A stretch of 64,000 nucleotides of DNA, taken from positions 127,286,001 through 127,350,000 of the forward strand of contig OX597818.1 of the NCBI GenBank assembly GCA_951406725.2. Direction: 5' to 3'. Position 1 is the stretch's first letter. Each line of letters begins with the position of its first letter. The position numbers were made by a program, and so were the translations under genes. The notes below the pieces were generated by a model. That model saw only the letters and a program-made list of their open reading frames with translations. It ran no database searches and was not told where the DNA came from. Positions 4,111 through 63,492 of the stretch are shown here, piece after piece. This DNA comes from Octopus vulgaris (taxonomy: Eukaryota).

Positions 4111-4156
4111 GTCAATATTCCTGAGATAATGTCCACCACTGTCCCCGACCTGAAAA
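4111..4156 (-). CDS. LBP/BPI: LBP/BPI exon (exon 12 equivalent), 46 nt, phase 2->0
   Basis: Acceptor ataatttcag, donor gtaagt; (S)FQVGDSGGHYLRNID; phases fit, sequence similarity weak. Confidence 0.7.
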
Positions 4157-4516
4157 CTGAAATTATAGCAAACATTAGAGGAGATCATTTGGTTTTCATG
4201 AGGTTTGTCTTCTGGAAATCTTGACACTTGATTGATCAAGCAGATTTATGATGAAAAGTATTTCAGTCAACTATTTTGTATCAGCAATATTCTGTCAAGG
4301 ACTGTATTAAACAATGCTGGCTCACCCTTTTTCAGGCGGTAAAATGGTTGTTGTTGTTGTTGTTAATGGTAACTTTGGCTGCTATTTTTAGCAAGTCGAT
4401 CGACCACGAAAAGGCTCGCTTGTTGACTCAAGAAAGTATATATTTATCAGTCATGTGTCTAAATGTGAAACAGTTAGTATTAACTTTTAACGATTGTAAT
4501 TGTTGTTATTGTTCTA

Positions 4517-4723
4517 GCAGACACGTTAGCGCGCCGGCGAAATGTTTAGCGATATTTCGTCTGCTGCTACGTTCTGAGTTCAAATTCCGCCGAGGTCGAC
4601 TTTGCCTTTCATCCTTTCGGGGTCGATAAATTAAGTACCAGTTTCGCACTGGGGTCGATGTAATCGACTTAATCTCTTTGTTTGTCCACTCTATGTTTAG
4701 CCCCTTGTGGGCAATAAAGAAAT
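4517..4723 (+). mobile_element. SINE family C
   Basis: gttagcgcgccgg...gagttcaaattcc...gcctttcatcctttcggggtcgataaattaagtacc...ccccttgtgggcaataaagaaa. Confidence 0.85.
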
Positions 4724-5009
4724 ATATTGTTGTTGTTGTTGTTATTACAAGAATAGCGAGCTGACAGAATCGTTAGAGCGTTGGAAAAAAATCTTTACAT
4801 TATTTTTTCGAGTCATTACAGTTTGAATTCAAATCCTACTGAAATCAACTTTACCATTTATCCTCTCAGTGTCTGTAAAAGAAACGCCAGTCATGTACAT
4901 CGATGGCATCGAATAATACCCACTTCTCGAAATGGCTAGTTTGGTACTTAAATTAGAAAACATTTGGACCCTATTGGCTATAAAAGAAGCCGTTGTTATC
5001 ATTTGGAAA

Positions 5010-5190
5010 TGGAGGTGCGTAGTTTAGTGGTTAGGGTGTTGGACTCATGATCGTAAGACTGTGGTTTCGATGCCTGCACTAGGTGTCACATTGTGTTCTT
5101 TAGCAAAACACTTTATTTCATGTTGCTCCAGTCCACTCAGCTGGCAAAAATTAGTAATCCTGTGACGGACCAGCGTACCGTCCAGGTGGG
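5010..5190 (+). mobile_element. Diverged tRNA-head SINE related to family B
   Basis: tagtttagtggttagggtg...ggtttcgatgcc...gcaaaacactttatttcatgttgctccagtccactcagctgg. Confidence 0.7.
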
Positions 5191-5269
5191 AAATGACAAC
5201 AGTTTTCAAGTGGATAGCTTCTCGATGTAATATAATCTTTCAGTTATAAAATATTTAAAAGGAACTTAC

Positions 5270-5337
5270 CTCATTGAATGAACTTTGTAAAATAACTGAC
5301 TGGAATTCACTAAAGCTTTCACGTTGCCATGCAGTTC
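5270..5337 (-). CDS. LBP/BPI: LBP/BPI exon (exon 11 equivalent), 68 nt, phase 0->2
   Basis: Acceptor tcatcacctttag, donor gtaagt; ELHGNVKALVNSSQLFYKVHSM; size and phases as expected. Confidence 0.85.
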
Positions 5338-59235: not shown

Positions 59236-59393
59236 CTGAAAAGAAAAAGAACGAACAAAAGGAATTTTAGATTAATAATTACAGTGACATCTAAACAAAT
59301 TATAATGAATTTGTAGTATGTATGTATGTATGTATGTATGTATGTATGTATTATGTATGTATGTATGTATGTATGTATATATGTATATATGTA

Positions 59394-59577
59394 TCGCCAT
59401 GTTGATTCGCTTGTTTCTCTCCGTGTTTCTTTTCTGTGTATCTTTCTGTTGAAGAGCGTAGGCTCGAAACGTAAAAGACTTGTTTTATTTATATTCCTGA
59501 GCGCCATACTAATACAATTGTTTGTTTGTATTCCACTTGCCTTCGTCTTTTGTTTATTTTCATAAAGCTTTCCGTTA
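59394..59577 (+). mobile_element. Short Penelope-like repeat with variant hammerhead-like motif
   Basis: Near-identical to 45846-46054 with an internal deletion. Confidence 0.6.
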
Positions 59578-59847
59578 TATATGTATGTATGCGTATAAAT
59601 TTTATATATATATATATATATATATATATATATCAGTTCGTATATATGAATATAGATAATATATATAGTATATAATATATAATTGCAGTGTCATCTAATA
59701 TATTCCCAGCCTAATCAATATTTTGTGAGTAAATTTGTATGTATGTATGTATGTATGTATGTATATATGTTTGTATGTGCAGATTTGTAGGTTTTATATA
59801 TGTACTATCATGCATATAGTTACATATCTAGACATGCTCGTATATAT

Positions 59848-62110
59848 TTAAATGATAAACTTCTGGATAGTTTTACAGGTTTTTACAGTTTCAGTGATGG
59901 ATTGGATCTGTAGTCTTCGAATTAGCTTTCTCCTTTCTGGATTTGAGAATAATAATTTCTCAAGATTAGTATTTAGGTAGTGTGTTACATATACCAGGGC
60001 CCCAATAATTACAGGTATAAACCTGGACTTGTAATCTGCATAGAGTAACTGCAGATTTCTCAAATAGTTCAGCATAGGTGTTCTCTTTTTCACTGATCTT
60101 CAGCTTTATGTTAACATCGGCTGGGCAGTTAATTTCCACAACTGTGCACAGTTTCTCTTCGCCGTTCCAAATCATTATATCTGGTGTCTTCACTGGTACA
60201 TTCCACCAGCATTCCTTTTTTTTATGAGTGGCTATGGCTTCTACCATGTTGTATGTTCTTATTTCTTTGTCTTCGGGATTATCCTTCCGGCGAATTTCAT
60301 TATAGAATGCCCTCGCTACATCATACCGGTAGGTAATACCTTGATGACATTTTTGGACAACTGCTTATGATGTGGGTGATATGTTCAGTGTGATCTCCAC
60401 AAAGTCTGCATCGGTTGTCATACTTTACCTGCATCTCCAACACTTTTGTGCATCAGGTGCTTGGTTGATATTTCCTGTTCCTGGATTGAAAACGTATACC
60501 CTTCAAAGTGGGAGGTAGTAATCCGGCTATTGGTCCATGATAGACTGCTTTCATGATTGATGTTACTATCATCACGGTGCTTTCTAGTAACATATCTATG
60601 CATAGTCTTCTGCTCATATAAGCTCATCCTTTCATCTGCTGATCCGTTGTGGTAGAGTCGTGCGACTTCTTTGGGCATGTATTCTAGGTTATCAGACAAA
60701 GAGTGTTGCTCAAAGAGCTGCCTTCCAAGTGTTTTGATGTTATCAGCCTCATGTATGCAAAGTTGGTCAAGGGATGTACTTCGATACTTGGTGGTTAAAA
60801 GATGTTGCCGAAGGGATATGATGCGACATTCAAAGGCATTTTGGATCGTTGTTGTGCCTCTCCCTCCTTGTTTTCGTTTTAGGTGGAGGCAGTCTACGTC
60901 ACTATTTATGTGGAAATTATGTGTGATTGTTAGTATTTTGCGGATTTTCACATCAATGGACAGGATCTCATTAAGCGCCAATCAAGCAGCTCAAATGCTG
61001 GTATGAGTTCTGATACTGCAAACACATTGTGGGCCACTGCTTTAGTAAATGTAGAGAGTTTTGAGGTCCACATTTTCGGCTGTAATATTCTTTAGTGACA
61101 CGTGTTTTGTTACAGGTGTAAGATATATTTTCATCCACCCCTATATACCTGTAACATTCCTTTTTAGATGCAGGGGAAACAGTTAAATCATAAATACAGA
61201 TGTTACTAGTCCGGTTTATAATTTCCCCCTTTTCACAACCATATAACAACATTTATCCTGACCAAACTCCAACCCTACATCCTTTGAGAATGTTGTAATT
61301 AGGTCAAGACTCTTTTTTTAGCTCATGCGTATTCTTTGCATAAAGTTTTAAGACATCCACAAAGAAACAGTGTGTAATTTTAGTATTTCCGTTTCCTTGT
61401 GAACCAGTGAGATATCTTTCAGACTTCCTTAACATGAATGACAAGGGGTTTACGGAAAGTTTAAACAACACCACAAAGAGGTTGTCTTCTTGAAATATGC
61501 CTTTGCAATACTGTATTCTATCGATGCTAATACAGTCACTCTTTTGTTTAATTTCAAGATGGTGGCCAACGATGAAGCCAGGTCAGGTATGGCTTTGATT
61601 ATTCTCACTGGAACCTTAGCAAGTTGAAGGGCTTCTAACATCCATGAGTGGGGAACAGAGTCAAAGGTTTACTTGTAGTCTAGCCACATTGAAACTAAGT
61701 TCCTCCTATGCTCTCGCACCTGTGACATCACAGTTTAGTTGATTAACAATTGCTTGGCACATCCCCAGACTCCCTTCTTCCCACCTGCTTGTTCTGCTGT
61801 GATGATGTTATTAGTTTCACAACAATCTTGGAGAAAGAGGTTTAAACATGCTGTATATATCTTATACATTAAGTTCTGGCATGCAATTGGCCGATAGTCT
61901 TTTGCCATGTAGGTGGTTCTGCATTTGGGGATCAATTTTGTTTCTGCCAGAGCTAACCAGTGTGATATGCTATTGTTCTCAATGAAAGCTTGCTGATACA
62001 GATTGATAAGATATGGTCGGTAGAATGTTAGCTTGTTGTAGCAATATCCAACAATCAAGTCTCTTCCAGGTGCTTTTCCATCCTGGATATTCTGGATCAC
62101 AGTTGCAAGA
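59848..62110 (-). mobile_element. Decayed RLE-type non-LTR retrotransposon (R4/Dong-like), 5' truncated
   Basis: KAPGRD, DYRPIAC, EQAGGKKG, FDSVPHSW, RKQGGRG, CRLCGDHTEHITHIISSC knuckle, PDIMIW...VVEINCP, IPVIIGAL; frameshifted. Confidence 0.9.
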
Positions 62111-63392
62111 GTACCAATTGAATAGTGGGGCAGATGTAATCGACTCATCCTCTCTCGCGAAATTGCTAGCTTTGTGCCAAAATTTAAAATCTATATTATA
62201 TCATGGCGGAATAACGAAGTCGTTAGAATCATAAGAGCTTCGGACGTAATACCTTGTATTTATTTAGTGTCCTTTAGGGGTCGAGTTCAGATCGATTAAA
62301 TATGCCTTGGTATTTGATCGGTATTCGTTTATCGATTCCAATGTGATAAAGAAAAAGTTGACCATAACAGAATTTGATTTCTGACTCGCACAGGAATAAG
62401 ATTAGTTATAATGCTGTATTTGGCCAGTCTTCCCATAAATTCTATCAATCCAATGCCTTAATTATTCCAACGTCCCGTATAAGACCAAACAGCAGAATGT
62501 TAATAACAGTAAATGGGAATAAAACAAAAAACTGCAAAACGTAACAAAGTTATGAGGCTGCTGTGAAATGTTCTGTTAAGTGATAACGAGAGTTATTTAA
62601 TGATTATGTAATATATATATATATATATATATGTGTGTGTGTGTGTGTGTGTGTGTGTGTGTGTATACAGAAATATCATATTATATCATATCCGACGTCT
62701 TATAAGTACACTTTTTACACCCATCACACGTACGCAATGTGTCCCAGAAAATTGACCTGCATCTATAAACACGAGGTCAGCGTTTACATTACTGGAAAGT
62801 GATGGGTGAAGAAAAGGTCAATGGAAATTTAAGAACATTTTATAAACTTGTGCTCAGTAATACTCCATCTCTAAGTTATAAACACGATAAGAATATAAGA
62901 TCACTTGAGCCAAAGATGGAAGTATTCTATTCTATTCATATCAGTTAACAGAAATGTTTCTTCTATATGAAGTTAAGACGACCAAATCATTTCATAAACT
63001 TCGAACACTAGCTGGCCGTATTCGTGCTACATACAGAGAAGCGTGTTTCAAGCCAAGCCTATCGCATAATGCTCATTGAAAAACAACAACGACGGAAGCT
63101 TTTGTTTCACAATCACCTTTGAAACTGAAAAGCTTCCTGGCAATTCAGTTGAAAGCATGCAGATCGTTATCTCCCAACGATCTGTGGAAAGCTATTTGAC
63201 AAGTATACATAAGAGGCCTGTCGGAGGATTATAATGATCAAGTATATATAATCCTAAATAATATATTTAATCTTAGATACCCTGTACCTGAAAAAAAGAG
63301 GTTATAGGCAAAGCTGAAACACCTCTGCTCAGCTAAACGACGATACCGATAACATATAAGCCACAATGATGTTACAATGAATTAAAGCTTAC

Positions 63393-63492
63393 TTTGTCAA
63401 GCTGTAGTAAGTGTCGCCAGTGTGTACGATGTTTGGAATTTTTCGTATTGATTTGAATTGTTCATGAAGTTGTGTGAATCCAATAGTGGAAG
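63393..63492 (-). CDS. LBP/BPI: LBP/BPI exon (vertebrate exon 2 equivalent), 100 nt, phase 1->2
   Basis: Acceptor ttcttttggcag, donor gtaagc; (A)STIGFTQLHEQFKSIRKIPNIVHTGDTYYSLT(N) fits the IP[DN]..G..Y pattern. Confidence 0.85.

What the first reader, a model, noticed from the sequence alone, without database searches (positions are those of the whole stretch)
4111..63492. Hidden, intact-looking LBP/BPI innate-immunity gene spread over more than 59 kb
Seen: 11 minus-strand exons of 46-177 nt with GT-AG boundaries splice into one stop-free frame of about 380 aa, under 2% of the window; introns reach 13.9 and 21.7 kb. Known: motifs and several exon sizes match the BPI/LBP/PLUNC family, which handles LPS and symbiont or egg defence in molluscs. 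Inference: the sequence looks divergent (e.g. K-AKISW instead of the usual K-GE), so it may be a lineage-specific paralogue.
Basis: partly seen in the sequence, partly recalled or inferred. Interest (0 to 1): 0.75.

Follow-up and report, generated by a model that had tools for sequence, protein, structure and literature searches.

The report
Annotated octopus LBP/BPI lipid-binding gene
This is an intact, spliced octopus gene of the well-known LBP/BPI family, already annotated in two octopus species, and its near-neutral protein likely binds and carries bacterial endotoxin rather than killing bacteria; it is an ordinary finding.

Summary
Eleven minus-strand GT-AG exons of 46-177 nt give a stop-free 380-aa frame, with introns of 13,869 and 21,719 nt. 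Four more exons in the flanking DNA complete a 15-exon, 96-kb gene for a 480-aa protein. Transcript-like contigs from 3 of 3 RNA-type runs join exactly across both giant introns.

The gene is not hidden. It is 97.7% identical to O. bimaculoides RefSeq XP_014779305, annotated as BPI. That orthologue carries both Pfam domains and folds like human BPI in prediction.

The odd motif (A for G in K-GE) is shared with squid EsBPI2 and marks a cephalopod clade; orthologues are 79-98% identical, so the gene is conserved, not newly divergent. The pI is 6.6 with a basic tip, which is LBP-like rather than BPI-like. Two paralogues lie elsewhere in the genome, one acidic and one more basic.

Verdict: a real, known gene whose function is untested. 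Interest is low.

The parts
63393..63492 (-). coding exon 2 of 15 (100 nt, aa 39-71). Exon 1 (ATG and hydrophobic leader, 115 coding nt) lies 14,937 nt upstream, outside the window, at G000:C5:127364544-127364430
59104..59235 (-). exon 3 (132 nt); N-terminal domain, holds most of the basic tip (R109, K112, K113)
57096..57169 (-). exon 4 (74 nt, R118); ends at a phase-1 intron that chicken BPI and PLTP lack and that resembles the CETP position (71 nt)
   Evidence: joined to exon 5 in contigs
43227..57095 (-). intron 4, 13,869 nt, repeat-rich
   Evidence: spliced out in X2, X3, X7
43084..43226 (-). exon 5 (143 nt); C155 of the conserved disulfide pair and an extra C157
21365..43083 (-). intron 5, 21,719 nt, repeat-rich
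   Evidence: spliced out in X2, X3, X7
21301..21364 (-). exon 6 (64 nt); C190 of the conserved disulfide pair
16977..17068 (-). exon 7 (92 nt)
14834..15010 (-). exon 8 (177 nt); begins with A241 (G in 87 of 95 aligned relatives); Pfam PF02886 hit over the cut-off
8378..8455 (-). exon 9 (78 nt); Cys pair C312/C318, common in the aligned relatives; weak GTTTGG donor
6790..6957 (-). exon 10 (168 nt)
   Evidence: long contig in 4 of 4 runs
5270..5337 (-). exon 11 (68 nt)
4111..4156 (-). exon 12 (46 nt). Exons 13-15 (64, 77, 45 nt to the stop) lie 14.5-17.6 kb beyond the window start, at G000:C5:127271520-127268385

Best explanation
This is an intact, spliced 15-exon octopus gene for a 480-aa two-domain LBP/BPI-family protein that is likely secreted and likely works as an LBP-type endotoxin binder and carrier, not as a bactericidal BPI. 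Shown: gene structure, open frame, splicing across the two giant introns, both family domains (on the 97.7% identical orthologue), Cys155/Cys190 aligned with the human BPI disulfide, basic residues at tip positions 92/95/99, and pI 6.6. Predicted: the boomerang fold and a cleaved leader. Inferred from the family: the basic tip docks on anionic lipid A, the protein extracts LPS or phospholipid into its apolar pockets, and the acidic C-terminal half hands it to a host receptor or lipoprotein. Tissue, ligand and receptor are untested. Family identity is about 0.99; the LBP-like mechanism is about 0.6.
For: Exons and frame. Contig junctions match exon 4 and exon 6 letter for letter over 30 nt in 3 of 3 RNA-type runs, while DNA run X15 runs on unbroken. 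Pfam PF01273 67.7 bits and PF02886 104.4 bits on P0003. Human BPI E 1.5e-33 and LBP 2.6e-22 by sequence. AlphaFold2 pLDDT 93 and Foldseek TM 0.78-0.79 to BPI. 7 of 13 internal exon sizes equal those of chicken BPI. pI 6.6; N-domain net +4 to +5 against +18 and +21 in P0006 and EsBPI2, +11 in lemur BPI; tip +3. PMC4620459 states that LBP is near neutral and BPI about pI 10, and that neutral squid EsLBP1 binds LPS at nanomolar affinity without killing E. coli.
Against: No binding or killing data exist here. The basic residues at human BPI positions 42 and 48 are missing, because that loop is 6 residues shorter. Sequence and fold match BPI better than LBP. The gene is probably not the EsLBP1 orthologue: EsLBP1 is 53% identical to EsBPI2, whereas the O. 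bimaculoides orthologue is 27.7% identical to EsBPI2, so the EsLBP1 result carries over by analogy only. Invertebrate LBPs and BPIs do not sort by function on trees (PMC5380838). Strong conservation fits a housekeeping lipid carrier equally well.
Confidence: 0.6

Rival explanations
1. A PLTP/CETP-like extracellular lipid-transfer protein that moves phospholipid or neutral lipid in haemolymph and has no main immune role.
For: Neutral pI and 79-98% conservation among octopods. Exon 2 (100 nt) equals chicken PLTP, and intron 4 resembles the CETP position. CETP is a fold match at TM 0.62.
Against: The basic tip residues at 92/95/99 are kept. BPI and LBP score far above CETP by sequence (E 1e-33 and 1e-22 against 7e-8). 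The nearest characterised relative in the tree is the squid antimicrobial EsBPI2. PLTP itself was not among the hits or named in the trees, so it was not compared directly.
Confidence: 0.22
2. A bactericidal BPI, as the RefSeq name says, active on mucosa, haemocytes or eggs.
For: RefSeq name. Best sequence and structure match is human BPI. Sister clade to EsBPI2, which is antimicrobial. The N-domain alone has pI 8.9 and there are 22 His that would add charge at low pH.
Against: Whole-protein pI 6.6 and N-domain +5 against +21 for EsBPI2. A more basic paralogue exists on C1 (+12 against +7 over three homologous exons). Database names here follow similarity (inference).
Confidence: 0.16
3. A pseudogene or a chance assembly of exon-like pieces.
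For: The public O. sinensis model P0001 is only 389 aa and loses the family C-terminus after aa 325.
Against: Full 480-aa frame with start and stop, 0 of 100,000 in the chance control, spliced contigs, full-length orthologues in two other species.
Confidence: 0.01

Closest known systems
Octopus bimaculoides XP_014779305.1, 'bactericidal permeability-increasing protein' (P0003)
   Same: 480 aa, 469 of 480 identical, no gaps; same pI and cysteines
   Different: 11 substitutions, nearly all conservative; automatic annotation only, as far as my searches show
Octopus sinensis XP_036359043.1, 'BPI-like' (P0001)
   Same: No mismatch in the part aligned up to aa 325
   Different: The public model is 389 aa: it reads past the exon 9 donor into an unrelated tail and lacks exons 10-15, which this genome holds
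Argonauta hians GAB1604829.1 (P0002) and unnamed transcript protein P0004
   Same: 78.8% and 58% identical, neutral pI, one clade at 100/99
   Different: Uncharacterised; the organism of P0004 is not given
Euprymna scolopes EsBPI2 (AEL03861.1) and EsLBP1
   Same: EsBPI2 lies in the sister clade (99/98), with the same A-for-G change and a similar SKK..F tip. EsLBP1 shares the neutral pI
   Different: 27.7% identity to EsBPI2; EsBPI2 has pI 9.6 and N-domain +21. The EsLBP1 sequence was not held, so its orthology was not tested directly
Human BPI (1BP1/1EWF) and LBP structure 4M4D
   Same: Two-domain fold (TM 0.78), disulfide cysteines, basic tip; 7 of 13 internal exon sizes equal chicken BPI
   Different: 20-23% identity; short non-basic 42-48 loop; extra Cys pair in the C-domain; exons of 74+143 nt where chicken BPI has 156+64

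Membership tests
LBP/BPI family (two-domain BPI fold) | N-terminal LBP_BPI_CETP domain (PF01273) over the cut-off | tested here: met
   67.7 bits against 28.8 on P0003, 97.7% identical to the window gene; window exon 3 alone gives E 0.0019, under the cut-off
LBP/BPI family (two-domain BPI fold) | C-terminal LBP_BPI_CETP_C domain (PF02886) over the cut-off | tested here: met
   104.4 bits on P0003; window exon 8 alone 24.8 against 23
LBP/BPI family (two-domain BPI fold) | Boomerang fold of two tubular domains | tested here: met
   Predicted model of P0003, pLDDT 93; Foldseek ranks 1-5 are BPI, LBP and CETP. A prediction, not a solved structure
LBP/BPI family (two-domain BPI fold) | N-domain cysteine pair (human BPI C135-C175) | tested here: met
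   C155 and C190 align with the BPI cysteines (numbering from PMC4620459); conserved in 87 and 86 of 95 rows. The bond itself was not measured
LBP/BPI family (two-domain BPI fold) | Conserved exon-size pattern | tested here: met
   7 of 13 internal exons equal chicken BPI (64, 92, 177, 168, 68, 64, 77); Table 3 of PMC3253384
LBP/BPI family (two-domain BPI fold) | Signal peptide | tested here: inconclusive
   Hydrophobic first 20 residues ending just before the position that aligns with mature BPI; no signal-peptide predictor was run
LBP/BPI family (two-domain BPI fold) | Basic residues at human BPI 92, 95, 99 | tested here: met
   R109, K112/K113 and R118, with a 2-residue insertion (positions from the Fig. 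S1 legend)
LBP/BPI family (two-domain BPI fold) | Basic residues at human BPI 42 and 48 (often replaced outside mammals, so not required for the family) | tested here: not met
   6-residue deletion and no Lys or Arg in this loop; PMC4620459 says such replacements are common in invertebrates
BPI proper (cationic, bactericidal) | Strongly basic protein, pI 9-10 | tested here: not met
   pI 6.62; N-domain +5 against +21 for EsBPI2
BPI proper (cationic, bactericidal) | Kills Gram-negative bacteria | not testable with these tools
   Needs recombinant protein
LBP type (neutral LPS carrier) | Near-neutral pI with a cationic tip | tested here: met
   pI 6.6, tip +3, C-domain -7 to -8
LBP type (neutral LPS carrier) | Binds LPS and transfers it to a host receptor | not testable with these tools
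   Needs binding and transfer assays
EsLBP1 orthologue | One-to-one grouping with squid EsLBP1 | tested here: inconclusive
   EsLBP1 not held; neither P0004 nor P0006 ends as the published primer requires; identities (53% against 27.7% to EsBPI2) argue against
PLTP / CETP / PLUNC branches | Grouping with these vertebrate branches | not tested
   No named PLTP or PLUNC protein in the trees; CETP scores E 7e-8 against 1e-33 for BPI

The most novel reading that the evidence does not exclude
This gene defines an uncharacterised, strongly conserved neutral LBP/BPI subfamily of cephalopods. Octopus manages LPS with three charge-partitioned genes (basic on C1, neutral here, acidic on C4) and has lost the EsBPI2/EsBPI4/EsLBP1 clade that squid use to control their symbionts. 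This gene would then be the octopus endotoxin sensor.
Probability: 0.3. Interest if true: 0.4.

Novelty: already known. Interest (0 to 1): 0.17.

Why it matters
It matters little as a discovery: orthologues are already annotated and the family is well known in molluscs. The useful outputs are three. First, a full 15-exon model with transcript support for two junctions, which corrects the truncated public O. sinensis model. Second, the point that the 'BPI' label is probably misleading for a neutral protein. Third, a three-gene octopus repertoire that could be compared with the squid symbiosis genes.

Tried and rejected
PF01273 search of the whole genome rang nowhere, 0 of 8 candidates; short exons defeat it, so it shows nothing.

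No listed run was on record as RNA. The spliced contigs, not the labels, are the evidence.

The first read-laying (4050-8500) was swamped by repeat-derived contigs, so true joints were not among the 15 of 196 rows shown. Junctions other than exon 4/5 and 5/6 rest on contig spacing and depth, not on listed joints.

Read-through of the weak exon 9 donor as a real short isoform was considered, because P0001 does it and bin 8222-8370 has depth in 3 of 4 runs. Rejected: depth on exon 9 equals the one long contig times 78/130 in 4 of 4 runs, so the extra contigs do not touch the exon (my arithmetic).

'Octopus has no basic LBP/BPI' was considered, then dropped when one search showed the C1 paralogue, which those three queries had missed.

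P0004 and P0006 were considered as EsLBP1 and rejected on the published primer.

The third protein search, with alignment A2, gave no new named relatives. The first tree run did not finish.

No Rfam family and no tRNA in the window. Earlier-findings look-ups returned nothing. No complex prediction was sent, as no partner is claimed. dN/dS was not computed, as no orthologous DNA was held.
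Full report
Observation. A splice-site scan and tblastn with two database proteins found the exons. One search fixed 11 of 11 at the coordinates listed under parts. All have AG acceptors and GT donors, total 1142 nt (1.8% of the window) and read as 380 codons without a stop; the other frames have 24 and 30 stops. The largest introns are 13,869 and 21,719 nt. In 100,000 random concatenations of AG..GT segments of the same lengths, 0 were stop-free. No exon overlaps a locally repeated element, while such elements cover about 33% of the window.

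The whole gene. The window is G000:C5:127286001-127350000. Flanking stretches hold exon 1 (115 coding nt from the ATG, 14,937 nt upstream) and exons 13-15 (64, 77 and 45 nt, after an 18,590-nt intron). The 15 exons give 1443 nt, 480 aa and a stop, over 96,160 nt.

Already annotated. Exon 8 matched O. sinensis XP_036359043.1 ('BPI-like') at 100%. Its cluster holds O. bimaculoides XP_014779305.1 ('bactericidal permeability-increasing protein', 480 aa), which equals the full model at 469 of 480 positions; Argonauta GAB1604829.1 is 78.8% identical. The O. sinensis model is truncated after aa 325. A search for five accession strings of these proteins found 0 papers. That library lacks most subscription journals, and supplements were not searched. 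A 2016 survey of invertebrate LBP/BPI genes by Baron and colleagues (recalled, not seen) may cover this gene.

Expression. One search listed 24 runs, none on record as RNA. Laid on exon 5 and its flanks, 3 of 3 RNA-type runs (X2, X3, X7; studies P2, P3, P4) each gave one contig covering exactly 43084-43226 with no mismatch. Their 30-nt loose ends equal window 21335-21364 (start of exon 6) and 57096-57125 (end of exon 4). Run X15, which behaves as DNA, runs unbroken from 42978 to 43290. Both giant introns are therefore spliced out exactly as predicted. In one search, 4 of 4 runs have a long contig on exon 10. In X2, X3 and X7 it has the same length and depth as and lies 554 nt from exon 5, the distance the model predicts (my arithmetic). 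Four intron bins (5391-5539, 6434-6731, 7626-7774, 8073-8221) have zero depth in all four runs. Tissues are not given.

Family. P0003 scores over the cut-off for both Pfam domains. Of the window's own exons, exon 8 passes PF02886 alone and exon 3 gives a sub-threshold PF01273 hit. Sequence matches in the PDB are human BPI (E 1.5e-33), LBP (2.6e-22) and CETP (7e-8). A model of P0003 from a 95-sequence alignment has pLDDT 93 and pTM 0.87; Foldseek ranks BPI first (TM 0.78-0.79), then LBP and CETP. Against Table 3 of PMC3253384 (passages), 7 of 13 internal exons equal chicken BPI in size, exon 2 equals PLTP and exon 12 equals TENP/LPLUNC6. Exons 4+5 are 74+143 where chicken BPI has 156+64. Chicken CETP has an intron 71 nt into this stretch, so the octopus intron is likely the older one that CETP kept (inference from sizes and phase, not from an alignment).

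Divergence. The A at position 241 is real: 87 of 95 aligned proteins have G, 7 have A, 1 has C. Five of the seven are P0003, Argonauta, P0004, P0006 and the EsBPI2-like P0008. A FastTree of 117 rows (14 chosen rows plus search hits of 440-530 aa; shorter and longer hits left out) and an IQ-TREE of 24 chosen rows agree. The window gene groups with O. bimaculoides, Argonauta and P0004 (100/99). That group is sister to the clade of EsBPI2, P0006 and a Sepia protein (99/98), inside a cephalopod clade that includes the C4-type paralogue (100/100). The trees are midpoint-rooted, these branches are long, and EsLBP1 and EsBPI3 were not available. The motif change is thus an old clade mark, and the gene is conserved within octopods.

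Mechanism. PMC4620459 (abstract, passages and Methods) gives the working rule: LBP is near neutral, BPI about pI 10, and neutral EsLBP1 binds LPS tightly but does not kill E. coli. The window protein has pI 6.62, N-domain +4 to +5, C-domain -7 to -8 and tip +3, and the orthologues match. EsBPI2 and P0006 have N-domains of +21 and +18; lemur BPI +11. Tip residues R109, K112, K113 and R118 align with BPI 92, 95, 96 and 99; the 42-48 loop is shorter and has no basic residue; C155 and C190 align with the BPI disulfide. I infer an LBP-like binder and carrier (0.6). A lipid-transfer role (0.22) and a bactericidal role (0.16) remain open. PMC5380838 (passages, section 6, three supplementary files) warns that invertebrate LBPs and BPIs do not sort by function; its tree used a different octopus accession, XP_014783324.1. 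Its Fig. S1 alignment is a picture and was not seen.

Repertoire. Five informative genome searches show three loci: this one, C4 near 17.96-18.01 Mb and C1 near 166.27-166.31 Mb. C4 matches Argonauta GAB1599130.1 (59-84% per exon; that protein has pI 5.2). C1 carries motifs like those of other molluscan members. Over homologous exons 2, 3 and 5 the net charges are +12 (C1), +7 (window) and -3 (C4); the C1 and C4 models are partial. Both paralogues have an exon boundary near aa 140 and span 44-51 kb or more; C1 has about 20.7 kb between its first two detected exons. Long introns are therefore normal for this family here. EsBPI2 and P0006 as queries found nothing closer than the window gene, which hints that octopus lacks that clade. 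These queries missed C1, so absence is not shown.

Other papers. PMC4199593 (passages and a supplement search, file cut) reports one BPI transcript in O. vulgaris haemocytes. PMC6522055 (one passage) lists one in O. maya white body. I could not assign either to a paralogue. PMC12773714 (passages) places EsBPI4 in symbiotic organs and EsLBP3 in gill. PMC6386654 gave only a reference-list hit. The egg-defence role in snails is recalled, apart from a reference title.

Verdict. A real, intact, expressed member of a known family, with annotated orthologues. It is best read as LBP-like, and its function is untested. Already known; interest 0.17.

Noticed in passing
G000:C4:17956274-18006913 (+), loci L009-L014: Second LBP/BPI gene, acidic type with canonical K-GE; exons of 103, 129, 143, 177, 69, 68 and 77 nt found; likely orthologue of Argonauta GAB1599130.1.
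   Followed up: partly
G000:C1:166269942-166313730 (-), loci L019-L024: Third LBP/BPI gene, more basic N-domain, found only by the PF02886 search; partial model. Candidate for the cationic BPI of octopus.
   Followed up: partly
window 8378-8455 and P0001 aa 326-389: The RefSeq O. sinensis model reads past the weak exon 9 donor into a tail that partly resembles a local repeat and is not found within the 120 kb held; probably a mis-prediction.
   Followed up: partly
window 27403-27933 (-): Transposase remnant in intron 5; Pfam DDE_3 E 0.0011, under the cut-off. Tc1/mariner type by recalled motifs.
   Followed up: partly
window 59724-62190 (-), 25900-26849 (+), 41277-41726 (+): Broken ORFs that look like LINE reverse-transcriptase or endonuclease remnants by recalled motifs; no Pfam hit at E 0.01.
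   Followed up: no
window 37241-37684 (-) and 48220-48552 (+): Two similar ORF fragments of a repeated element; no Pfam hit.
   Followed up: no
window 4504-4734, 5572-6368, 7108-7581 and about 40 similar places: Short interspersed repeats with up to about 50 local copies; thousands of transcript-run contigs lie on them.
   Followed up: no
L002 840-1622: 62-bp tandem repeat, 12.6 copies at 98% identity, filling much of the last intron.
   Followed up: no
P0005 (Gigantopelta aegis XP_041375654.1): 1094-aa record holding two complete LBP/BPI units in tandem; fused gene model or real fusion not determined.
   Followed up: no
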